From an uncultured Acidobacteriota bacterium (GTDB lineage Bacteria; Actinomycetota; Acidimicrobiia; Spongiisociales; ZC4RG35), in NCBI GenBank assembly GCA_963720925.1, contig CAVRHE010000003.1:1263-65262 (forward strand): DNA of 64,000 bases, given 5' to 3'. Both the position numbers and the translations under genes were made by a program. Position 1 is the stretch's first letter; each line of letters opens with the position of its first letter. Of the stretch, positions 54,449 to 64,000 are shown piece after piece. Under the pieces are notes generated by a model that did no database searches, was not told the DNA's origin, and saw nothing but the letters and a program-made list of their open reading frames with translations.

Positions 54449-55787
54449 TCATCGTCCGATACCCGCGTACCGCTCGACTGAGTTCTCGTCGAGCATGCGA
54501 CGGCCGTCGAACACGAACGGCGCTCGATCGAGCTTGCGCAGCAGCTCCGGTAGGCGTTCGAACTCGTGCCAGCGGGTGACGATCACGATGATGTCGGCGG
54601 AGGTGACTGCGTCCTCGAGGGATGCGGCGTACTTCACGGGTGTCTCACCGAGTACGAGTCGGGCCGTGTCCATCGCGACCGGGTCGTATGCCGTCACGTC
54701 CGCTCCCGCCGTGACAAGTCGCTCGATGATCGGAAATGCCGGAGATTCGCGAACGTCGTCCGTATCGGGCTTGAACGCCAGGCCGAGCACGGAGACGCGT
54801 GCGTCGTGCAGGTCGCGGACCTCGCGGCGAATCCCCTCGAGCACGCGATCCGGTCGGTCCCTGTTGGTGTCGAGAACGGCCTGGAGCACCCTCATTTCCA
54901 CTCCTTTCAGGGCTCCGTGCGCGATGAGGGCACTGACGTCCTTGGGGAGGCAACTTCCCCCGAATCCGCACCCCGCCTCGAGGAAGCTCACGATCGGCGC
55001 GCGGTTCGACTCGCCATCGGATCCAGGAACGGTGAGATATCCGGACGTGTGCAGGCCGGCCATGACGTCACGGGCGTCGACACCACCGAGTGCGGTGCAC
55101 AAGTCGGCGAACTCGTTGGAGAAGGAGATCATGGTCGCAAGCAGCGCGTTGGACGCGTACTTGATCATCTCGGCCGCCTTGTTGTTGGTGCGGATGATCG
55201 GGACGTCCGTGAAGGCGGCGTACACGTCGGACAGCGTGTCGAGCGTCCGCTCGTCGACCCCGCCGACCACGATTCGGTCAGGGATCCATGAAGTCGGCGA
55301 CGGCCTGGCCCTCGGTCAGGAACTCCGGGTTGACCCCGAGACCGAAGCCCTCACCGGCGCGCCGGCCCGAGGTCTCCTCCAGAGCTTCCCGCACCACGCC
55401 GTCCGTCGTGCCGGGCACGACCGTGCTCTTGACGACGACGACGTGATGCTCGGACTTCTCGGCCAGGGCGGCACCCACCTGGCGAGCCGCATTCACGACA
55501 TATGTCAGGTCGATCGCGGCGCCGTCGAACGGCGTTCCGACGGCTATGAAGGTCACCTCGGAGTCCCGGACCGCGTCGGCGAGGTTGGTCGTTGCCGAGA
55601 ATCGCTTGCCGGCGTGGCGCTCGAGCAAGTCGACGAGACCGACCTCATGGATCGGCGCCTCAGCGCGATTGAGCCGGTCGACCTTCGAACGATCCACGTC
55701 GACGCAGACGACTTGGTGGCCCTTGTCGGCCAAGCACACCCCGGTGACGAGCCCGACATAGCCGGCGCCGATGATGGAGACTCGCAT
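54449..55787 (-). pseudogene. UDP-glucose/nucleotide-sugar 6-dehydrogenase, interrupted at a CCC-TGA site
   Basis: The N-terminal ORF (from ATG 55787) reads MRVSIIGAGYVGLVTGVCLA...GVNPEFLTEGQAVADFMDP*. The +1 frame continues DRIVVGGVDERTLDTL...NNKAAEMIKYASNALLA...FGGSCLPKDV... The junction is at 55278-55284 (coding strand GAT CCC TGA CCG). Confidence 0.85.
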
Positions 55788-56920
55788 CAGGCGTCTTCGG
55801 CATGGCGGTGGTAGTGGTACCACACGAGGGTTCGCCGTAGGCCCTCGTCCACGAGTATCGACGGCTCGTAGCCCAATTCAGTCCGAGACTTCGTCATGTC
55901 CGGGCACCTGCGGTTCGGGTTGTCGACCAGGTAGTCAGCCTCGGTCGACTGGCCGGTCACCACGGTCCCGGAGTATCCGAAGAGGCCGTGCGCCGTCGCG
56001 GTCAGCCGTCTCCCGAGGTCCGCCATCGAGATCTCTGGACGATCGATCCCGATGTTGTAGGCCTCGCCGGCCCGTCCGCGCACGAGCGCCCGGTAGTAGC
56101 CGACGACGGCGTCGGCCACATAGCAGAAGGTTCGCTTCGGGCTTCCATCTGAGAACAGGACGATGTCACGACCGCTGAGGATGTCGCGTGCGAAGTCGGG
56201 AATCACGCGTCGATCGCTGATCTTCAGGCCCGGTCCGTAGTTGTTGAAAGGGCGGACCATCCGCACCGGCACGCCATAGTGCTGGGCGAACACCGAGCAC
56301 AAGGTCTCGCCGTAGCGCTTCGACTCGTCGTAACACGCGCGCGGACCGGTGCACGAGACGTTGCCGCGGTAATCCTCCGATGTGGGGATGCGGTCGGGAG
56401 GCGGGTCGCCGTAGATCTCGCTGCTCGAGTAGAAGATGAAGCCGCCGACCTCGAGGCCTCGCTCGACCCGGTCTCGTGCGTACTCCAGCAACATTCGCAG
56501 CCCGTCGATGTTGGCATCCATCGTCTCCAACGGGTGGGCTCGGTAGTACGTCGGGGACGCGATCCCGGCGGCGTGGACGATGAACTCGAAGTCTGGCATC
56601 GGGTCCGGCAGTGGCTGTCGCATGTCGTGTCGGACCATCGTGAGATCGCTACGCCGGCCGAGTTCATCCAGCCACGGCGGGACGCCCCGCACGTAGTTGT
56701 CGAACACGGTCGTGTTGATCCGCTGATCCTCGACGACGCGGTCGTTCCAGTGGAGCACGCTCTGCACGAGGTAGTAGCCGAGGAATCCGGCTCCTCCGGT
56801 GATGAGGAGACGCTTCCCAGCCATCGCCGTGAAGTCGTCGACGAGCTGGTCGACGATGTAGTCGAGGTCGCGCGCAAGGAGATCGGCAAGGGGCTCGATC
56901 CCTTCCTGCAGGTCTGTCAT
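55787..56920 (-). CDS. UDP-glucuronate decarboxylase-like SDR (UXS/ArnA-C-terminal type epimerase/dehydratase)
   Basis: It contains LLITGGAGFLGYYL, SSSEIYG and CYDESKRYGE (YxxxK). The stop overlaps the dehydrogenase start (ATGA). Confidence 0.75.
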   Translation of the reverse strand: MTDLQEGIEPLADLLARDLDYIVDQLVDDFTAMAGKRLLITGGAGFLGYYLVQSVLHWNDRVVEDQRINTTVFDNYVRGVPPWLDELGRRSDLTMVRHDMRQPLPDPMPDFEFIVHAAGIASPTYYRAHPLETMDANIDGLRMLLEYARDRVERGLEVGGFIFYSSSEIYGDPPPDRIPTSEDYRGNVSCTGPRACYDESKRYGETLCSVFAQHYGVPVRMVRPFNNYGPGLKISDRRVIPDFARDILSGRDIVLFSDGSPKRTFCYVADAVVGYYRALVRGRAGEAYNIGIDRPEISMADLGRRLTATAHGLFGYSGTVVTGQSTEADYLVDNPNRRCPDMTKSRTELGYEPSILVDEGLRRTLVWYHYHRHAEDA

Positions 56921-57441: not shown

Positions 57442-58753
57442 GTGAAGCTGGCAGTTTTCGGACTCGGGTATGTGGGGTCGGTCACGGCTGCCTGCCTCGC
57501 CGAGGACGGCCATGACGTCGTCGGTGTCGACTCCAACCGGGAAAAGGTCGAGATCTTCAACGCCGGCCGGGGCCCCGATCCGCGAGCCTGGACTCGACGA
57601 ACTGATCGCCTCTGGCGTCTCCTCGGGAAGGCTGCTGGCCACAGACGACTCTGTCATGGCAGTGGAGCAGTCGGATGCCGCTCTGATCTGTGTGGGAACA
57701 CCCAGCCGTGACGACGGAAGCATCGAGCTCGACCACGTCCGCGCGGTGGTGGCCGATATCGGACGCGCGTTGAGGGGCAGGGCCGCGCCGTTCACGGTCA
57801 TCCTTCGGTCCACCGTGCTCCCGGGAACCACGAGAGATGTCGTCCTCCCGATACTCGAGTCGGCTTCGGGTCTCACCGTCGGCGAACAGGTAGATCTCTG
57901 TTTCAACCCGGAATTTCTCCGCGAAGGCTCGTCGATACAGGATTACCGGGAGCCTCCCAAGATCGTGGTCGGCACCGAGCACGGGAAGCACAATGCGATC
58001 ACAGACCAGCTGTATGCCCATTTCGAATGCCCTCGGTCCGACACGGTCTTCGAGATCGCCGAGCTGGCCAAGTACGTAGACAACAGCTGGCACGCCCTCA
58101 AGGTGAGTTTTGCCAACGAGATGGGTCGGCTCGCGCGGGACATGGGAGTCGACGGCAGAGATGTCATGACGATCATGACCGGCGACACCAAGCTGAACAT
58201 CTCGTCTCGGTACCTGCGACCTGGGTTCGCCTACGGCGGGTCGTGTCTGCCCAAAGACATCGCCGCTCTCCAGTCACTCGCCCACAGCCGCCAGCTCGAC
58301 CTGCCGCTCATCTCGGCGATCCCCGAGAGCAACGAAGAGCACATCCGGTCCGCCATGGATCTCATCGAGGATCTGGGCGGCCACAAAGTCGGATTGCTCG
58401 GCGTCACGTTCAAGTCGAACACCGACGATCTGCGGAATAGCCCCTTCCTCGAGCTGGCCCGTCGCATGCTCGATCGCGGCTTGGAGGTTCGGGTCTTCGA
58501 TCCCGATTTCAACCCGAACGACCTAATCGGGGCGAACCTGGCGTTCCTCAGTGAGCAGCTTCCCTCATTCGAGCAAGTCCTCGTGTCCTCCCCCGACGAG
58601 GTGATGGCTTTCGGGGACATAATCGTCCTCGCGAAGACCGACGAGCCGCTGGTCGATGCTGCGCTGAAGCTGGGGCCCGCCCAACACCTGGTCGACCTCG
58701 CCGGGATGTCGGTCAGGCCCGTGGACGGGAGTTACGTTGGCATCGGCTGGTAG
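57442..58753 (+). pseudogene. GDP-mannose 6-dehydrogenase (AlgD)-like nucleotide-sugar dehydrogenase, frame broken once near the 5' end
   Basis: From GTG 57442 the protein reads MKLAVFGLGYVGSVTAACLAEDGHDVVGVDSNREKVEIFNAGR. The +1 frame (ORF 57470..58753) then continues APIREPGLDELIASG...VGTPS...NPEFLREGSSI...YGGSCLPKD...VDGSYVGIGW*. The junction is at the GGGG run 57569-57572. The GLGYVG N-terminus, the length and the G-I-x-W C-terminus recall AlgD, but substrate specificity is not certain. Confidence 0.75.
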
Positions 58754-59969
58754 GCGTGTCCTGATCATCGTCCAGAACCTGCCGGTGCCTTTCGACCGGC
58801 GGGTCTGGCTCGAGGCCACCACCTTGCAGGCCCACGGCTACGAGGTGTCGGTGATTTGTCCCAAGCTGAAGGGATTCAACGAATCCCGCGAGACGATCGA
58901 GGACGTCGAGGTGTTTCGCTATCCGATGCCGTTCGACCCGAGATCCAAGGTTGGCTTCCTGGCCGAGTTCTCGTGGGCCTGGCTCGCCACCTTCTTCCTC
59001 TCCTTCAAAGTAGCGAGGCAGGGTCGTGGCTTCGACGTGATCCACGCCTGTAACCCACCGGAGACATACTGGGCCCTCGCCCTCATTTGGCGGCTGGCAG
59101 GGAAGAAGTTCATCTTCGACCATCACGACCTCTCCCCTGAGATGTTCGAAGCCAAGTTCGGCGTCAAAAGCGGCCTCGTACATCGACTCCTGCTCTTCAT
59201 GGAGCGCCGATCCTTCCGGACAGCCGACGTGGTTCTCGCAACCAATGAGAGTCACCGGACCGTTGCCATCGAGCGGGGCGGCGTGAACTCAGACCGGGTT
59301 GCGATTGTGAGGTCCGGGCCAGATCTGAAGAGGTTGAACGTCTATCCCCCCGACCCGGCGTGGGCAAAGTCGAAGAAGCATGTCATCGCCTATCTCGGCG
59401 ACATCTCGGCCCAAGACGGGGTCGATGGTCTCGTCAGGGTGGTGGCTCGGTTGAGCGAGCAACGGGACGACTTCCACACCGTCGTCATCGGTGGCGGGTC
59501 GGCTTGGGAGGAAGTGAAACGGTACGCACAAGACCAGCATGTGGACCATCTCTTCACCTTCACCGGTGTCGTGTCAGACGATGTTCTTTGCCGGGCGCTG
59601 TCGTCGGCAACAGTGGCGGTGGACACAGTCCCGAAGAACAGCTGGTCGGACCGTTCCACCATGAACAAGATCATGGAGTACATGTACTTCGGGCTGCCGA
59701 TTGTGGCGTTCGACCTCACCGAGACGATGAGGTCCGCCGAAGACGCCGTGGCTACGGCGCGATCCGGCGACGAGTCGGAGTTCGCCGAGATCCTCGACCA
59801 GCTCCTGGACGACCCCGAGCGGCGGAGGCGGATGTCCACCGCGGGCAGGAGTCGACTGGAGAGCACTTTGAGCTGGGAGCACTCGGTCCCTCATCTGTTG
59901 AGGGCCTATCAACGCGCCTTTGCCAATCGACCCCGCGGCCGTGTCGCGGCGAAGTCTCGCCCCGCCTGA
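58737..59969 (+). CDS. Glycosyltransferase family 4
   Basis: It contains RVLIIVQNLPVPFDRRVWLEATTLQAHGYEVSVICP and ...FDHHDLSPEMF..., with a C-terminal E..x7..E-type region (MEYMYFGLPIVAFD). The TTG start overlaps the dehydrogenase 3' end, so the start is uncertain. Confidence 0.75.
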   Translation: MASAGRRVLIIVQNLPVPFDRRVWLEATTLQAHGYEVSVICPKLKGFNESRETIEDVEVFRYPMPFDPRSKVGFLAEFSWAWLATFFLSFKVARQGRGFDVIHACNPPETYWALALIWRLAGKKFIFDHHDLSPEMFEAKFGVKSGLVHRLLLFMERRSFRTADVVLATNESHRTVAIERGGVNSDRVAIVRSGPDLKRLNVYPPDPAWAKSKKHVIAYLGDISAQDGVDGLVRVVARLSEQRDDFHTVVIGGGSAWEEVKRYAQDQHVDHLFTFTGVVSDDVLCRALSSATVAVDTVPKNSWSDRSTMNKIMEYMYFGLPIVAFDLTETMRSAEDAVATARSGDESEFAEILDQLLDDPERRRRMSTAGRSRLESTLSWEHSVPHLLRAYQRAFANRPRGRVAAKSRPA

Positions 59970-59972
59970 CCC

Positions 59973-61964
59973 TCATTGGGATCCAGCAGCCTCAGCGCTT
60001 TCCCCGTCGCCCACGTGAAGCCGTGTCGTCACAGCCTCGCCGGGATCCAGTTCGCCTTCACCTTCGAGGGTGAACGAGGGAATACGCACGTCGAAGCCCG
60101 GCGAATACCAGCCGAGTGGTGCCCTCTCATCGCCACGCACGGCCCGCCATGACATTGTCCCGCTGAGCTCGATCCTGGCCGACCGTGCCGAGCCATCAGC
60201 AGCCCCCCACGACAGCTGAGCCACGGTCCCGTCGAGCACGCATTCGACGAGTGGGCCGAAATGAAAGCGCAGGATGGCCGGGGTAGACCGGTCAACCATG
60301 TCTTCGATCGTCACGCGGGCGTCGTCGACGACCACCTTCCTCCGATGCTCGATCTCCCCTCCGTCCACATGAGCTCGAATGCAATAGCCAGTCCAACTCG
60401 TCACCGAGCCCTCCGACACCTCCGCCACACCAGATCGCTCGGATGAGGACCAGATGAATGGCCCCGTCTGCTGGGGGTGCCGGGCCTTGGCGAGTTCGAG
60501 GGTGTTGTGAGCGCGGTTCGAGCGGAAGTACGAGCGCCAGAATGGCTCCAACTGGTAGCAGTAGGTGCCGGGATCGGCCAGGACGTCCACCCCGCCGTGT
60601 CTCAGCTCGACAGACAGGGCGTCGTCATGGCCGTGGGCCGCGGTCGTCATGAAGCCGAGCGGGCCACCGTCACATCGACACCAGATCTCCGACGGCCGGC
60701 CGGGCCGGGCCCTCAGGATCGTCATTCCGGATTCCGGGAAGGAGGCCGGCCGGCTCGAGGGTCGACCACCAGGCAAGGCGCCGACCGAAGCGAATGAGGC
60801 AAGGACCGAGCTTCGGACGTCGCCTGCGACTCGAGGCGTCGGCCACCAGTCGAGCCGCCCGAACAGCGACGAACCTGTGACGAGCAACGAGGCCCAGCGG
60901 TCAAAGCCCGGTCCATCGACAAGGAGGGCGTTCGCATCATCTGAGTCCCCCTGGCGGGGCGGTCTACCCGAGACGTCGAGGACTGCGGCCACGACGTCGA
61001 CCATCGAGCGAACACGGATCCAGAACTCGTCTCCAAGCCCTGACCCGGCCGCCTCGCCCTCGAGGCCGGCGAGCATGAGGAGTTCCGCCACGAAGCCGTG
61101 ATAGTCCGCGGCCAACTCGCGGTCCACGCCATCGGCGTCGATTTGGCGCCGCGCTTCGGCGATGAGGCCCCGGCCCGCCTTGTCCCGCCACCGAGAAGAC
61201 TCGGGGAAGCTCGGAAAGGCACAAGCTGCGCTGAACAGGCCCGCCCACTCAGCCACGGCATGGTTGTTGGCGGAGGTGCCATGGCTTGGCAATCGGTCGA
61301 GCCACAACTGGTGCGCATAGAGCTGGTCGAGAAAGCTCGGATTCTCCTCGAACCAGGCTGGTGCCCGGTCGTCGTAGTCGAGCAGACGCCGTATCCAGAC
61401 CCAGGAGATCAGCCGCATTCCGATCTCGATGCCGCTCGTCCAATGGATGCCACGAATCGGGGGGTTCGCCTTCCACCAGCTGTCCAGCTGGGCCATGACC
61501 AATCGGCTGGACTCCTCATCACCACTCAAACGGGCGGCGCTTGCCAACACCGTCAGATGCTGATGACGAGAGGGTTCCCAGACGTGCTTCAGGCTGCCCG
61601 GCCACCCCCGCTGGTCTATGCGGAAAGCCGACTCCGTCGCCGAGGCGCGCAACCCGGTCTTCGGGTCCATGAACCAGTCAGGGCTCTCCCCCATGTCGGT
61701 TCGAACGACGCCGAACACCTGGACCCGACCTTGCAGAACCGACTCGACGGCGGCCGACAGATCGCCGAGAGCAGCCGGCGAGGGCGTCTCAGGCGGCCGG
61801 CGAAGTGGAGTGGCAAACCCACCCTCGGCCCGTTTCGCCCCGGCTCCCCTCAGCCTCTTCTCCTCCAGGCCGGTGATCACCTTGACCCCGGCATCCTTGG
61901 CTCGGCGGACGATCTCGCCGGGGCCCATGGCCGCGAGGCGGTGGATGTACCAGCTGAGAGTCAA
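59973..61964 (-). CDS. Heparinase II/III-family (alginate-lyase-like N-domain) protein, no signal peptide
   Basis: The 663-aa ORF has an alpha/alpha-toroid-like N-half (WEPSRHQHLTVLASAARLSGD..., NNHAVAEWAGL) and a Hepar_II_III-like C-half (AAHGHDDALSVELRHGGVDVLADPGTYCY). The N-terminus MTLSWYIHRLAAMGPGEIVRRAKD is not signal-like. The start overlaps the upstream stop. Confidence 0.75.
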   Translation of the reverse strand: MTLSWYIHRLAAMGPGEIVRRAKDAGVKVITGLEEKRLRGAGAKRAEGGFATPLRRPPETPSPAALGDLSAAVESVLQGRVQVFGVVRTDMGESPDWFMDPKTGLRASATESAFRIDQRGWPGSLKHVWEPSRHQHLTVLASAARLSGDEESSRLVMAQLDSWWKANPPIRGIHWTSGIEIGMRLISWVWIRRLLDYDDRAPAWFEENPSFLDQLYAHQLWLDRLPSHGTSANNHAVAEWAGLFSAACAFPSFPESSRWRDKAGRGLIAEARRQIDADGVDRELAADYHGFVAELLMLAGLEGEAAGSGLGDEFWIRVRSMVDVVAAVLDVSGRPPRQGDSDDANALLVDGPGFDRWASLLVTGSSLFGRLDWWPTPRVAGDVRSSVLASFASVGALPGGRPSSRPASFPESGMTILRARPGRPSEIWCRCDGGPLGFMTTAAHGHDDALSVELRHGGVDVLADPGTYCYQLEPFWRSYFRSNRAHNTLELAKARHPQQTGPFIWSSSERSGVAEVSEGSVTSWTGYCIRAHVDGGEIEHRRKVVVDDARVTIEDMVDRSTPAILRFHFGPLVECVLDGTVAQLSWGAADGSARSARIELSGTMSWRAVRGDERAPLGWYSPGFDVRIPSFTLEGEGELDPGEAVTTRLHVGDGESAEAAGSQ

Positions 61965-64000
61965 TCGCCCGACAGACGGCGGAGCGGCTCAGATCGCCCC
62001 GATCCGGCACTCGTCTGCGCCAGCAGGGTGGCCTCGGTCGTGCTCACCAACGATTCGATCGCGATCGGCATATCCGAACCGGTCCGGACTGACTCCACGA
62101 ACGCTCCGATCTGGGCCGCCTGACCCTTGTCCACCTTCCCCCTCGAACGACGAACTGTCTTACCCCGATCCGACCAAATCGTCGCCTCCTTGAAATTGTC
62201 GAGGCGGGCCGTCCGGGATGAACCCGAGACGAGGAACGTCTCTTTCGGGTAGGTACGGCTCCCCCTGGTGAGATACGAGATGAGCCCTATCGAGCCGCCG
62301 GGATAGCGCAGAATCACTTCGAGGTCGTCCACCTCTCCAGGGGACGGATGGCCCGCCACCTCAAGCGGGTCTTCGCCCAGCCACCATGACAAGGCGTCGA
62401 TGAAGTGGCCGCCCTCGCCATCGAAACGGGAACCGTATCGAGAGACGTCCCGGTACCAGCTGTCGTTGTCGAGAGGCCCGGCGTTCACGATGTAATGCAG
62501 GTGCTGCTCGCCATGCCCTACGCCCCAAGATTCCTTCAGCTGGCGCAGGAGGGGCGCGAACCTGCGATTGAACCCGACCATCAGCCGTTGATTCCCTGAC
62601 GATCGGATCGACTCGATGACCTGATCGAGCTCCCCCCTGTTCGTGGCCAGCGGCTTCTCCACGAACACCGCCTTTCCGGCGGCGATCAACTCGGAGACCA
62701 TCCGCGCATGCAGATCGTGGCGTGTGGCGATCACGACGGCATCGATCGCGTCGTCGTCGATCAGGGTCTGGTAGTCAGACGTGATGCGGTCGAATCCGAA
62801 CCTCTGCTGCGCCGTGGCACCGGAGAGGGCAGTGGCTGTAGCAACCACCGAGAGATGCACGTCGGGGTTCGACGCCAGATGTGGCAACAACATGGTGCTG
62901 GCGTAGTTGCCACTGCCGATCACTCCGAGGCCGACCTTGCCGGATCTGGTCCCCATGTCTGCCCGTTTGCCCAGGTGAAGGATCCGCTCTATCGATGTCT
63001 CCTGCGTGTACGCGAACAGGCTCCCGATTGCGCGCGACTCCCCGGAGAGAAGCCGTTCATAGGCTTCGACCGAGCCGTCGAAAGGGATGATCTCGTCGAT
63101 CAGGCTCTCCAACCGGATCTTGTCGGCAGCAACCAGGTCGAGGAAGGACCTCATATTCCGCTGCTCGGTCCATCTCACATACCCGATCGGATAGTCGACA
63201 CCCTCTTCTTCATATCTCGGGTCATACCTTCCCGGGCCGTAAGACCTCGAGAAGCGCACATCGATCTCTTTTTCGTAATAGGGCTTCCACGGGAGATCGA
63301 GCGGCAGCTTGCCGACATCGACGATTCGAGCCTTGTCTCTTGCGATTTCCACCGCCATGCTCACGGGCTGGTCGGAGTCGGTGGCGGCGGCGAGGAAAAC
63401 GACATCGGCACCGTGACCATCGGTGAGCTCGAGAAGCCTTTCTCTCACCCGAGACGCAGATTGTCCATCAGGCGCTCCGGCAGCGCGGGCGCCCGATCGC
63501 TCGGCCAAGCCGCAACGCTCCTCCGACGGGTCCACTCCGACGACGTTGACCCCGGCCGCATCGGCGATCTGCACCAGCAGCTGGCCGATGAGACCCAGCC
63601 CGATCACACAGACCGTCTCGCCGATCGTGGCCTCGGAGCGCCGGAACGCCTGCATGGCGATCGCGCCCACGGTGGCAAAGGCGGCGTGCTCGGCTTTGAC
63701 CCCATCGGGAACGAGCGCGCACAAGTTCCGGGGTACATAGTTGAACTCGGCATGCAGGGCGTACTCGTTTCCGCCACAGGCGACCCGACTGCCGACCGGC
63801 AGTTCTGGGACCGTGGACTCGACGACCGTGCCCGACAGTGAGTAGCCGAGCGGGGTGTAAGAGTCGAGTCGGTTCATGACCTTGCGATAGGTGGCACCTA
63901 CACCCTGCTGGGACACGGAATCGAGCACTTTCCGAACCTGATCGGGCCTGGCCCGGGCCTTGCCGAGGAGAGACATCTTGCTCTCGGCGATCTTCATCAA
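61961..64000 (-). CDS. Bi-domain oxidoreductase: zinc-type alcohol-dehydrogenase (MDR) domain + Gfo/Idh/MocA domain; 5' end beyond the right edge
   Basis: The MDR part contains ...CGGNEYALHAEF..., VCVIGLGLIGQLL and ...VVGVDPS... The Gfo/Idh/MocA part contains VGLGVIGSGNYAS..., VFVEKPLA. The alignment expected for this family suggests about 40-60 N-terminal residues lie outside the window. Confidence 0.75.
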   Translation of the reverse strand: MMKIAESKMSLLGKARARPDQVRKVLDSVSQQGVGATYRKVMNRLDSYTPLGYSLSGTVVESTVPELPVGSRVACGGNEYALHAEFNYVPRNLCALVPDGVKAEHAAFATVGAIAMQAFRRSEATIGETVCVIGLGLIGQLLVQIADAAGVNVVGVDPSEERCGLAERSGARAAGAPDGQSASRVRERLLELTDGHGADVVFLAAATDSDQPVSMAVEIARDKARIVDVGKLPLDLPWKPYYEKEIDVRFSRSYGPGRYDPRYEEEGVDYPIGYVRWTEQRNMRSFLDLVAADKIRLESLIDEIIPFDGSVEAYERLLSGESRAIGSLFAYTQETSIERILHLGKRADMGTRSGKVGLGVIGSGNYASTMLLPHLASNPDVHLSVVATATALSGATAQQRFGFDRITSDYQTLIDDDAIDAVVIATRHDLHARMVSELIAAGKAVFVEKPLATNRGELDQVIESIRSSGNQRLMVGFNRRFAPLLRQLKESWGVGHGEQHLHYIVNAGPLDNDSWYRDVSRYGSRFDGEGGHFIDALSWWLGEDPLEVAGHPSPGEVDDLEVILRYPGGSIGLISYLTRGSRTYPKETFLVSGSSRTARLDNFKEATIWSDRGKTVRRSRGKVDKGQAAQIGAFVESVRTGSDMPIAIESLVSTTEATLLAQTSAGSGRSEPLRRLSGD

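What the first reader, a model, noticed from the sequence alone, without database searches (positions are those of the whole stretch)
57442..64000. AlgD-like dehydrogenase, GT4, a cytoplasmic heparinase II/III-like protein and a bi-domain oxidoreductase: a uronic-acid module with an unexplained lyase-fold enzyme
The right end of the window carries four genes:
- a dehydrogenase with GDP-mannose-dehydrogenase-like features (GLGYVG N-terminus, G-I-G-W C-terminus)
- a GT4
- a 663-aa heparinase II/III-family protein with no signal peptide
- an MDR + Gfo/Idh/MocA fusion, overlapping it

Lyase-fold proteins without export signals inside biosynthetic loci are unlikely to be degradative. They may act on nucleotide-sugars or the nascent chain, for example by epimerisation or 4,5-elimination chemistry at uronic acids. 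To my knowledge this pairing recurs in capsule and O-antigen loci, but its biochemistry is not established. A second dehydrogenase plus a UXS-like decarboxylase lie just upstream (54449-56920).
Basis: partly seen in the sequence, partly recalled or inferred. Interest (0 to 1): 0.55.

Follow-up and report, generated by a model that had tools for sequence, protein, structure and literature searches.

The report
Mannuronate sugar-inverting cassette with lyase-fold enzyme
Four real neighbouring genes in an uncultured soil actinobacterium form one more copy of a widespread, biochemically untested cassette in which a signal-less heparinase-shaped enzyme and a two-domain oxidoreductase most likely reshape a mannuronic-acid sugar inside the cell before it is added to a surface polysaccharide.

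Summary
The region encodes:
- an AlgD-like GDP-mannose 6-dehydrogenase (57442-58753), broken in this assembly by one extra base at 57577
- a GT4 (58737-59969)
- a 663-aa heparinase III-fold protein with no signal peptide (59973-61964, minus strand)
- an MDR + Gfo/Idh/MocA oxidoreductase that overlaps it by TTGA (61961 to about 64126, running past the window end)

The oxidoreductase-then-heparinase-like pair is strongly conserved. It is adjacent in 74 of the 80 closest loci, and in 401 sampled Actinomycetota 22 of 28 genomes with the oxidoreductase also have the heparinase-like gene.

It is the same kind of pair as WeeE/WeeF (GnlA/GnlB), ZbdP-HepP of P. aeruginosa PA14, and two genes of the Ralstonia eps operon. 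None of these has an established biochemistry.

In this subfamily the partner dehydrogenase is AlgD-like. In the divergent subfamilies it is WecB/WecC. Both make D-manno uronic acids. The characterised glycans of the WecB/WecC type contain L-GalNAcA, which is the 3,5-epimer of D-ManNAcA.

My best reading is cytoplasmic inversion of GDP-ManA to an L-hexuronate, with C5 inverted by the lyase-fold enzyme and C3 by the redox fusion. This is an inference, not a demonstration.

The scan has noted this cassette at least eight times before on other DNA, including AlgD-linked copies.

The parts
57442..58753 (+). AlgD-like GDP-mannose 6-dehydrogenase. It is read in two frames (57442-57576, then 57578-58753) because of one extra base at 57577.
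   Evidence: Pfam N, central and C domains. PDB 1mfz AlgD scores 341 bits end to end, against 202 bits for the best UGDH. The 1-nt insertion is seen against intact L003, L004 and L005.
58737..59969 (+). GT4 glycosyltransferase, overlapping the dehydrogenase stop by 17 nt. It is probably the transferase for the modified uronic acid.
   Evidence: Pfam Glyco_trans_4_4 and Glycos_transf_1. It co-occurs with the heparinase-like gene in 76 of 80 loci, nearly always directly after the dehydrogenase. It is homologous to the GT4 directly downstream of the heparinase-like gene in the Ralstonia eps operon (25% identity, 7e-19) but not to the other GT4 there.
59973..61964 (-). Cytoplasmic heparinase III (PL12)-fold protein, 663 aa, with a TTG start. 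It is the proposed uronate C5 proton-abstracting enzyme (an epimerase-like role).
   Evidence: Pfam Hepar_II_III_N and _C. Profile hits to heparinase III structures 5jmd and 4mmh, whose catalytic N240/Y294/H424 align to family-invariant N234/Y288/H444. AF2 model with pLDDT 84.8. Foldseek finds heparinase III first and human dermatan sulfate epimerase 6hzn at TM 0.55. No signal peptide.
61961..64000 (-). Bi-domain oxidoreductase (zinc-less-looking MDR domain plus Gfo/Idh/MocA domain). It continues to about 64126, outside the window. Its stop overlaps the heparinase-like start (TTGA).
   Evidence: Pfam ADH_zinc_N and GFO_IDH_MocA. It is 36% identical over 720 aa to the 713-aa 'zinc-binding dehydrogenase' of the Ralstonia eps operon. 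Junction sequence; start region.
54449..56920 (-). Upstream neighbours, probably a separate UDP-xylose branch: a UDP-glucose 6-dehydrogenase-like gene (54449-55823, with one extra base at 55283) and a UXS-like SDR (55787-56920).
   Evidence: Pfam and NCBIfam. PDB UXS1 2b69 scores 164 bits. The insertion is seen against L003-L005. The UXS-like gene is present in only 7-8 of the 80 related loci.

Best explanation
This is a cytoplasmic sugar-tailoring cassette for a surface glycan.

Proposed steps:
1. The AlgD-like dehydrogenase oxidises GDP-D-mannose to GDP-D-mannuronic acid.
2. The bi-domain oxidoreductase and the heparinase III-fold protein then invert stereocentres of that uronic acid.
 - The lyase-fold enzyme uses its conserved Asn/Tyr/His machinery to abstract the acidic C5 proton next to the carboxylate. 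It returns the proton from the other face, which is C5 epimerisation. No elimination follows, because C4 carries only OH.
 - The Gfo/Idh/MocA and MDR domains oxidise and re-reduce a ring carbon, most likely C3. The precedent is the Gfo-family UDP-GlcNAcA 3-dehydrogenases.
3. The net product would be an L-hexuronate: GDP-L-GalA if both centres are inverted, or GDP-L-GulA if only C5 is.
4. The adjacent GT4 transfers the product to the growing lipid-linked unit.

Shown: gene identities, the intact catalytic triad, the absence of an export signal, and the conserved linkage.

Inferred: the substrate, the level of action (nucleotide sugar), which carbon each domain handles, and the product.
For: (1) The dehydrogenase is AlgD-like end to end.

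(2) The heparinase III catalytic Asn/Tyr/His are invariant across 22 family members. The fold also houses a true C5-epimerase, human DS-epi1 (6hzn).

(3) There is no signal peptide or TM segment. The beta-helix proteins next to the heparinase-like gene in related clusters do carry signal or lipoprotein leaders.

(4) Linkage in the 80 closest loci:
- The oxidoreductase lies directly upstream on the same strand in 74 of 80.
- Four of the six exceptions are truncated contigs.
- The AlgD-like dehydrogenase is present in 73, the GT4 in 76 and AsnB in about 66.

(5) In 401 sampled Actinomycetota: 22 genomes have both genes, 6 have the oxidoreductase only, 11 have the heparinase-like gene only and 362 have neither.

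(6) Divergent copies of the pair sit beside WecB and/or WecC (UDP-ManNAcA) in 11 of 15 actinobacterial loci, and in the Ralstonia eps operon and a Sphingobium plasmid. So both subfamilies follow a D-manno uronic-acid-forming step.

(7) Glycans made by loci with the WecB/WecC-type pair contain L-GalNAcA, which by stereochemistry is the 3,5-epimer of D-ManNAcA:
- A. venetianus RAG-1 (PMC9676051)
- P. aeruginosa O10 (PMC11200240; hepP/zbdP match only PA14-like and serotype O10 DNA, PMC5732420)
- Ralstonia EPS I, which contains galactosaminuronic acid (PMC3759889; the L configuration is from my own knowledge)

(8) V. vulnificus VV0358, a heparinase-like gene, is needed for capsule (PMC6037467).
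Against: - No enzyme of this family has been assayed on a nucleotide sugar.
- The catalytic triad cannot tell a lyase from an epimerase.
- Recombinant HepP cleared heparin in a single protamine plate assay (PMC5732420).
- A 2026 preprint reads the lyase fold of GnlB as 'suggesting a different functional role' (10.64898/2026.07.20.739706).
- Six sampled genomes have the oxidoreductase without a detectable heparinase-like gene, and 11 the reverse. A. baumannii KL215 has gnlB alone (PMC9676051). So the two are not obligate partners.
- I know of no report of L-GalA or L-GulA in glycans of these actinobacteria.
- The dehydrogenase is frameshifted in this assembly.
- The AsnB usually found beside the pair lies on another contig here.
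Confidence: 0.5

Rival explanations
1. The lyase-fold protein acts on the polymer or on the lipid-linked oligosaccharide at the cytoplasmic face, not on the nucleotide sugar. It would be a polymer-level C5-epimerase (like AlgG or dermatan sulfate epimerase) or a trimming or quality-control lyase (like AlgL). The oxidoreductase would then do an unrelated tailoring step.
For: All structural relatives act on polymers. DS-epi1 is a polymer-level epimerase. The V. vulnificus authors proposed a clearing-lyase role (PMC6037467). A rare GT4-heparinase-like fused ORF exists (P0128).
Against: Translational coupling and near-universal adjacency to the oxidoreductase suggest one shared small substrate. 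The cassette is used with Wzy-type neighbours in relatives, where the polymer forms outside the cytoplasm.
Confidence: 0.2
2. Elimination-reduction chemistry. The lyase-fold enzyme performs a true 4,5-elimination on an activated uronate. The zinc-less MDR domain, of the enoyl-reductase type, reduces the double bond. The product would be a 4-deoxy or otherwise reduced uronate rather than an epimer.
For: The intact lyase triad. The MDR N-terminal region reads SLVSAGTE where the zinc-binding Cys motif usually lies (the motif position is from my own knowledge).
Against: The characterised glycans from WecB/WecC-type loci contain L-GalNAcA, not deoxy sugars (PMC9676051, PMC11200240). C4-OH is a poor leaving group.
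Confidence: 0.1
3. It is an ordinary degradative heparinase or glycosaminoglycan lyase, as claimed for HepP.
For: The plate assay with recombinant HepP (PMC5732420). Sequence and fold similarity to heparinase III.
Against: There is no export signal and no catabolic neighbours. The gene is locked between a dehydrogenase-GT4 pair and an oxidoreductase in hundreds of genomes of soil bacteria. The HepP assay was a single clearing zone with 28 ug of protein and no product analysis.
Confidence: 0.03
4. Whatever its chemistry, the module is inactive in this organism, because the GDP-mannose dehydrogenase (and the neighbouring ugd, TauE, Bac_transf and AsnB genes) are real pseudogenes.
For: There are 1-nt insertions at 57577, 55283, 52088 and 64715 relative to a 95%-identical genome. 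The AsnB on C14 is also split.
Against: Each lesion is a clean single-base insertion in an otherwise 95-99% conserved gene with no other damage. They are spread over unrelated genes. That pattern fits consensus errors of a long-read metagenome assembly (14 contigs, one of 1.1 Mb). The heparinase-like and oxidoreductase genes have no indels.
Confidence: 0.12

Closest known systems
WeeE/WeeF of the Acinetobacter venetianus RAG-1 emulsan cluster, renamed GnlA/GnlB in A. baumannii K loci (PMC9676051)
   Same: A gene pair in a capsule locus, postulated to make an L-configured hexuronic acid (UDP-L-GalNAcA). GnlB has since been recognised as heparinase-fold (10.64898/2026.07.20.739706). The chemistry has not been demonstrated.
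   Different: I could not obtain these sequences, so similarity was not measured directly. I have not verified from sequence or text that GnlA is the bi-domain oxidoreductase. From my own knowledge, those loci supply UDP-ManNAcA (WeeA/WeeB); here the supplier is an AlgD-like GDP-mannose dehydrogenase.
'Zinc-binding dehydrogenase' and 'heparinase II/III-family protein' of the Ralstonia solanacearum eps (EPS I) operon (CP052087.1, L086)
   Same: Same order and same strand (oxidoreductase, heparinase-like, GT4). The oxidoreductase is 36% identical over its full length. The heparinase-like protein is 23% identical, with the NNH, YH and H...DAL motifs kept. The downstream GT4 is homologous.
   Different: The Ralstonia operon has wecB/wecC and a bacillosamine module. 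Its heparinase-like protein is 612 aa and very divergent. Here the dehydrogenase-GT4 pair is inverted and converges on the heparinase-like gene.
ZbdP-HepP operon of P. aeruginosa PA14 (PMC5732420)
   Same: A 78-kDa MDR + Gfo/Idh/MocA protein is followed by a signal-less heparinase II/III protein in one operon. The genes are found only in PA14-like and serotype O10 DNA, and the O10 O-antigen contains L-GalNAcA (PMC11200240).
   Different: HepP is shorter (about 550 aa) and was reported as a heparinase and virulence factor. Its O-antigen role was never examined. I made no sequence comparison.
Heparinase III / HepC (CAZy PL12; PDB 4mmh, 4fnv, 5jmd)
   Same: Fold and the catalytic Asn/Tyr/His.
   Different: Heparinase III enzymes are secreted or periplasmic catabolic enzymes. 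This protein has no signal peptide, shares only 16-18% identity and sits in a biosynthetic operon.
Human dermatan sulfate epimerase 1 (PDB 6hzn)
   Same: The same lyase-type fold used for uronate C5 epimerisation (TM 0.55). This is the mechanistic precedent.
   Different: It acts on a polymer in the eukaryotic Golgi. Identity is 12%, and it has no oxidoreductase partner.
Alginate pathway (AlgD, AlgG, AlgL)
   Same: GDP-ManA formation by an AlgD-type enzyme, and downstream C5 chemistry on mannuronate.
   Different: There is no Alg8/Alg44 synthase. A GT4 and Wzy-type logic replace it. In alginate the epimerase and lyase are periplasmic and have other folds.

Membership tests
GDP-mannose 6-dehydrogenase (AlgD type) | End-to-end similarity to AlgD that exceeds similarity to UDP-glucose and UDP-ManNAc dehydrogenases | tested here: met
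   1mfz scores 341 bits over residues 47-436. The best UGDH scores 202 bits, Cap5O 91 bits and 4r16 87 bits.
GDP-mannose 6-dehydrogenase (AlgD type) | Catalytic cysteine motif GGSCLPKD and N-terminal GxGxxG | tested here: met
   GGSCLPKD aligns with the AlgD Cys268 region. FGLGYVG is present in the N-terminal frame.
GDP-mannose 6-dehydrogenase (AlgD type) | Uninterrupted reading frame | tested here: not met
   There is an extra G at 57577. L003, L004 and L005 are intact. This is probably an assembly error.
GDP-mannose 6-dehydrogenase (AlgD type) | Activity on GDP-mannose | not testable with these tools
   Needs an enzyme assay.
Heparinase III / PL12 lyases | (alpha/alpha) toroid plus beta-sandwich fold | tested here: met
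   Foldseek top hits are 5jmd, 4fnv and 4mmh, E 1e-20 to 1e-22.
Heparinase III / PL12 lyases | Catalytic Asn240/Tyr294/His424 (Pedobacter numbering, from my own knowledge) | tested here: met
   They align to N234, Y288 and H444, which are invariant in 22 homologues.
Heparinase III / PL12 lyases | Export signal and a catabolic (polysaccharide utilisation) context | tested here: not met
   No hydrophobic N-terminus. The neighbours are biosynthetic.
Heparinase III / PL12 lyases | Beta-eliminative cleavage of heparan sulfate | not testable with these tools
   Needs an assay at 232 nm.
Biosynthetic heparinase-like / bi-domain oxidoreductase pair (WeeE/WeeF, GnlA/GnlB, ZbdP/HepP, Ralstonia eps) | An MDR + Gfo/Idh/MocA fusion immediately upstream, on the same strand, translationally coupled | tested here: met
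   TTGA overlap. Adjacent in 74 of 80 loci.
Biosynthetic heparinase-like / bi-domain oxidoreductase pair (WeeE/WeeF, GnlA/GnlB, ZbdP/HepP, Ralstonia eps) | Sequence homology of both proteins to a named member | tested here: met
   Against the Ralstonia eps genes: oxidoreductase 36% identity, 7e-132; heparinase-like protein 23% identity, 1e-17.
Biosynthetic heparinase-like / bi-domain oxidoreductase pair (WeeE/WeeF, GnlA/GnlB, ZbdP/HepP, Ralstonia eps) | A linked WecB/WecC module supplying UDP-ManNAcA | tested here: not met
   No wecB or wecC in any of the 80 close loci. An AlgD-like dehydrogenase takes their place in 73. This is why I class it as a variant.
Biosynthetic heparinase-like / bi-domain oxidoreductase pair (WeeE/WeeF, GnlA/GnlB, ZbdP/HepP, Ralstonia eps) | A homologous GT4 linked to the pair | tested here: met
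Uronate C5-epimerases of lyase fold (DS-epi1 type) | Shared fold with Tyr and His acid/base residues | tested here: met
   6hzn has TM 0.55. Y288, H289, H444 and H446 are invariant.
Uronate C5-epimerases of lyase fold (DS-epi1 type) | Demonstrated C5 inversion | not testable with these tools
   Needs D2O exchange and NMR.

The most novel reading that the evidence does not exclude
The heparinase III-fold protein is a nucleotide-sugar-level uronate C5-epimerase. Together with a two-domain C3 oxidise/re-reduce enzyme, it converts GDP-D-mannuronic acid into GDP-L-galacturonic acid. That would be a nucleotide sugar and a route to L-hexuronic acids that have not been described. It would parallel UDP-D-ManNAcA to UDP-L-GalNAcA in Acinetobacter, Pseudomonas O10 and Ralstonia, and it would be used by hundreds of Streptomyces, Amycolatopsis, Acidimicrobiia, Nitrospirales and Alphaproteobacteria species.
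Probability: 0.3. Interest if true: 0.7.

Novelty: new variant of a known kind. Interest (0 to 1): 0.45.

Why it matters
The biosynthesis of L-configured hexuronic acids such as L-GalNAcA has never been demonstrated enzymatically. L-GalNAcA occurs in the P. aeruginosa O10 O-antigen, Ralstonia EPS I and Acinetobacter capsules. The only published activity for a member of this pair is 'heparinase', which has been interpreted as a virulence function.

The comparative pattern found here gives a concrete, cheap test. The pair always follows a D-manno uronic-acid-forming step, either GDP-ManA or UDP-ManNAcA. GDP-ManA can be made in vitro from GDP-mannose with the AlgD-like enzyme.

A positive result would add a new catalytic use of the polysaccharide-lyase fold. 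It would correct many 'heparinase' and 'alginate lyase' annotations in biosynthetic loci. It would also reveal an uncharacterised mannuronate-derived surface glycan in common soil actinobacteria.

This particular copy is one ordinary instance of the cassette.

Tried and rejected
L003, L004 and L005 have uninterrupted frames at that site, and the window simply carries one extra base.
- Natural oxidoreductase-heparinase-like fusions as Rosetta-stone evidence are too weak to use. The long 'open frames' are only stop-poor alternative frames of high-GC DNA. The five fused ORFs are singletons from metagenome assemblies and could be indel artefacts.
- The beta-helix neighbour as an AlgG-type mannuronan C5-epimerase: it has no DPHD motif, though it does have a signal peptide. 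I left this open.
- A proper dehydrogenase tree with AlgD, Ugd, WbpA and WecC could not be built. No reference sequences were obtainable, because the control genomes lack Pseudomonas. Bit scores against PDB and NCBIfam were used instead.
- Literature searches that combined heparinase with bi-domain, with asparagine synthase, or with GDP-mannose dehydrogenase and Streptomyces found nothing relevant.


Full report
**What is there**

The right end of the window holds two convergent gene pairs.

Plus strand:
- A nucleotide-sugar dehydrogenase (57442-58753).
- A GT4 glycosyltransferase (58737-59969), which overlaps the dehydrogenase stop by 17 nt.

Minus strand:
- A bi-domain oxidoreductase, from 61961 running past the window end.
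- A 663-aa heparinase II/III-family protein (59973-61964).
- The oxidoreductase stop and the TTG start of the heparinase-like gene overlap as TTGA.
- The two convergent stop codons, of the GT4 and of the heparinase-like gene, are only 3 nt apart.

The window is G000:C3:1263-65262 in a 3.0-Mb, 14-contig metagenome-assembled genome. Its nearest relative in the species collection is labelled Acidimicrobiia (L003).

Reading on into the contig, the oxidoreductase most likely starts at a TTG at window-equivalent 64126, behind a GAGAGGA Shine-Dalgarno sequence. That start matches the start of its Ralstonia homologue and gives 721 aa.

Beyond it lie a Bac_transf initiating-transferase fragment, an RmlC-like epimerase, a DRL/SAF oxidoreductase, a glucose-1-phosphate cytidylyltransferase-like gene and a PIG-L deacetylase. 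The setting is therefore glycan biosynthesis.

**The dehydrogenase**

It aligns end to end with P. aeruginosa AlgD, the GDP-mannose 6-dehydrogenase (PDB 1mfz, 341 bits). The alignment includes the GGSCLPKD catalytic-Cys motif and the C-terminal GIGW. The best UDP-glucose dehydrogenase reaches 202 bits and does not cover the C-terminus. UDP-ManNAc dehydrogenases score about 90 bits.

The gene is split between two frames. Comparison with L003 (95% identical DNA overall), L004 and L005 shows one extra G at 57577 in the window. All three relatives read FNAGRGPIREPGLDEL without a break.

The upstream UDP-glucose-dehydrogenase-like gene has the same kind of lesion at 55283. So do a TauE gene (52088) and the Bac_transf gene (64715, outside the window). 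An AsnB gene on contig C14 is also split.

These are clean single-base insertions in otherwise well-conserved, unrelated genes. I read them as assembly errors, with about 85% confidence. The heparinase-like and oxidoreductase genes have no indels relative to L003.

It accompanies the cassette in only 7-8 of 80 related loci. It is probably a separate UDP-xylose branch.

**The lyase-fold protein**

- Pfam finds both heparinase II/III domains.
- A profile built from 22 homologues hits heparinase III structures (5jmd 2e-22, 4mmh 4e-19). The catalytic residues of Pedobacter heparinase III are N240, Y294 and H424 (numbering from my own knowledge; the chain offset was checked in the printed alignment). 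They align with N234, Y288 and H444, which are invariant in the family.
- An AlphaFold model (pLDDT 84.8) matches heparinase III best. It also matches PL15, PL17 and PL33 lyases and human dermatan sulfate epimerase 1 (6hzn, TM 0.55). So the fold is known to support C5 epimerisation as well as beta-elimination.
- No 19-residue window reaches a signal-peptide or TM level of hydrophobicity (maximum 1.23; 0.67 in the first 40 residues). The N-terminal WY.RRL..M.P.E motif is conserved as part of the protein.
- By contrast, the beta-helix proteins encoded next to this gene in relatives carry clear signal or lipoprotein leaders.

**How conserved is the arrangement**

The protein has more than 5,500 database homologues, many at 45-50% identity over the full length. 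At least 591 species genomes encode a relative.

In the 80 best loci:
- The bi-domain oxidoreductase lies directly upstream on the same strand in 74. Four of the six exceptions are truncated contigs.
- An AlgD-like dehydrogenase is present in 73, the homologous GT4 in 76 and an AsnB-type amidotransferase in about 66.
- The dehydrogenase-GT4 pair either follows the heparinase-like gene (Acidimicrobiia, Alphaproteobacteria, Nitrospirales) or lies about 5 kb upstream (Streptomyces, Amycolatopsis).
- In Amycolatopsis the full cluster reads DH, GT4, unknown, Wzz, AsnB, oxidoreductase, heparinase-like, beta-helix, Wzy, GT4.

In this genome the AsnB, beta-helix, Wzy and tyrosine-kinase-like genes sit on another contig (C14, about 190-200 kb).

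In an even sample of 401 Actinomycetota genomes:
- 28 have the fused oxidoreductase and 33 have a heparinase-like match.
- 22 have both, 6 the oxidoreductase only, 11 the heparinase-like gene only, and 362 neither. The odds ratio is about 120, but related genomes are not independent.
- In 15 of the 22 the two genes lie within 3.5 kb of each other. In four they are on different contigs of fragmented assemblies.
- These counts include two unpublished genomes: G226 (oxidoreductase only) and G174 (heparinase-like only). Without them the counts are 22, 5 and 10 of 399.

**What is known**

The pair already has names.

- WeeE/WeeF of the A. venetianus RAG-1 emulsan cluster were postulated to make UDP-L-GalNAcA, and were renamed GnlA/GnlB in A. 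baumannii (PMC9676051).
- A 2026 preprint notes that GnlB has a heparinase fold, 'suggesting a different functional role' (10.64898/2026.07.20.739706).
- In P. aeruginosa PA14 the same architecture is the zbdP-hepP operon. HepP was called a heparinase on the strength of one clearing zone in a heparin-protamine plate. The O-antigen was not considered. The genes matched only PA14-like and serotype O10 DNA (PMC5732420). The O10 O-antigen contains L-GalNAcA (PMC11200240).
- V. vulnificus VV0358, a heparinase-like gene, is required for capsule (PMC6037467).
- I found the pair in the Ralstonia solanacearum eps operon. The order there is wecB, wecC, two transporters, GT4, acyltransferase, 'zinc-binding dehydrogenase', 'heparinase II/III-family protein', GT4, then a bacillosamine module.
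 - The window's oxidoreductase is 36% identical to the Ralstonia one over 720 residues.
 - The heparinase-like protein is 23% identical, with the catalytic motifs kept.
 - The window's GT4 is homologous to the GT4 directly after the Ralstonia heparinase-like gene but not to the other GT4.
 - EPS I contains galactosaminuronic acid (PMC3759889). That it is the L form is from my own knowledge.
- A Sphingobium plasmid shows the same wecB-wecC ... oxidoreductase-heparinase-like-GT4 order. There the oxidoreductase carries the NCBI name 'bi-domain-containing oxidoreductase'.

**A generalisation**

In the window's subfamily the linked dehydrogenase is always AlgD-like, never WecC-like. In 15 divergent actinobacterial loci with the oxidoreductase, 11 carry wecB and/or wecC within 10 kb, as do Ralstonia and Sphingobium.

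Both routes end in a D-manno-configured nucleotide uronic acid: GDP-ManA or UDP-ManNAcA. By Fischer projections, L-galacto differs from D-manno at C3 and C5, and L-gulo differs at C5 only. These are the same relations as in the GDP-mannose 3,5-epimerase reaction. So L-GalNAcA is the 3,5-epimer of D-ManNAcA.

This suggests a division of labour:
- The lyase-fold enzyme removes and returns the acidic C5 proton. On a nucleotide sugar C4 carries only OH, so the outcome is epimerisation rather than elimination.
- The two redox domains invert C3 by oxidation and re-reduction. Gfo/Idh/MocA enzymes such as WbpB/WlbA oxidise C3 of UDP-GlcNAcA (my own knowledge).
- A 4-keto route is less attractive, because 4-keto-hexuronates decarboxylate, which is the UXS chemistry.

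For this locus the predicted product is GDP-L-GalA, or GDP-L-GulA if only C5 is inverted. The GT4 would transfer it. All of this is inference.

**Rivals**

I considered action on a lipid-linked or polymeric substrate, elimination followed by enoyl reduction by the apparently zinc-less MDR domain, and a true degradative lyase. The last is very unlikely given the cytoplasmic location and the context.

**Novelty and score**

The observation and the interpretation stand, but this is one more copy of a cassette that recurs across phyla. The scan itself has noted it at least eight times on other DNA, including AlgD-linked versions.

Relative to the published WeeE/WeeF-type pair it is a variant, linked to GDP-ManA instead of UDP-ManNAcA, and the heparinase-like protein shares only about 23% identity.

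Its value lies in the open biochemistry of the family, not in this instance.

Noticed in passing
window 52088, 55283, 57577; window-equivalent 64715 (L002): Single-base insertions relative to the 95%-identical genome L003 break four unrelated conserved genes: TauE, ugd, the AlgD-like dehydrogenase and Bac_transf. This looks like consensus error in a long-read assembly rather than gene decay.
   Followed up: partly
window 55270-55290: The CCC-TGA-C site in ugd was proposed earlier as a programmed +1 frameshift. It is not conserved: L003, L004 and L005 read straight through (FMDPDRI / MEPDRI) with one base fewer.
   Followed up: yes
G000:C14:188000-206000 (L085): A second glycan locus holds Wzy_C, a tyrosine-kinase-like P-loop protein, a GT2, an AsnB-type amidotransferase (split into two ORFs) and a signal-peptide-bearing beta-helix protein. 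These are the genes that flank the oxidoreductase-heparinase-like pair in Amycolatopsis and Streptomyces, so the conserved cluster appears to be split over two places here.
   Followed up: partly
L002:2696-7113 (window-equivalent 64433-68850): Beyond the window end lie a Bac_transf fragment, an RmlC-like 3,5-epimerase (at the NCBIfam cut-off), a DRL/SAF-domain oxidoreductase, a glucose-1-phosphate cytidylyltransferase-like gene (below the cut-off) and a PIG-L deacetylase. This is probably a CDP- or dTDP-deoxysugar branch. The nucleotidyltransferase and PIG-L genes recur about 7 kb from the heparinase-like gene in about 30 of the 80 related loci (Streptomyces and Kitasatospora).
   Followed up: partly
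window 59967-59975: The stop codons of the convergent GT4 and heparinase-like genes are 3 nt apart, which leaves no room for terminators. In relatives the dehydrogenase-GT4 pair is co-directional with the heparinase-like gene, so this lineage (also L003-L005) carries an inversion of that pair.
   Followed up: no
proteins P0123-P0128: Rare database ORFs fuse the bi-domain oxidoreductase with the heparinase-like protein (1340-1428 aa). One fuses a GT4 with it (1431 aa). All are singletons from metagenome assemblies. They may be real fusions or indel artefacts at overlapping stop/start sites.
   Followed up: no
L083:11934-13463 and L085:11234-12448: Secreted or lipoprotein beta-helix (NosD-like) proteins accompany the cassette in 57 of 80 loci. 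They lack the DPHD motif of mannuronan C5-epimerases. A 2024 paper names actinobacterial proteins as the closest bacterial relatives of brown-algal ManC5-E (PMC11468063). I did not test whether these are the same proteins.
   Followed up: partly
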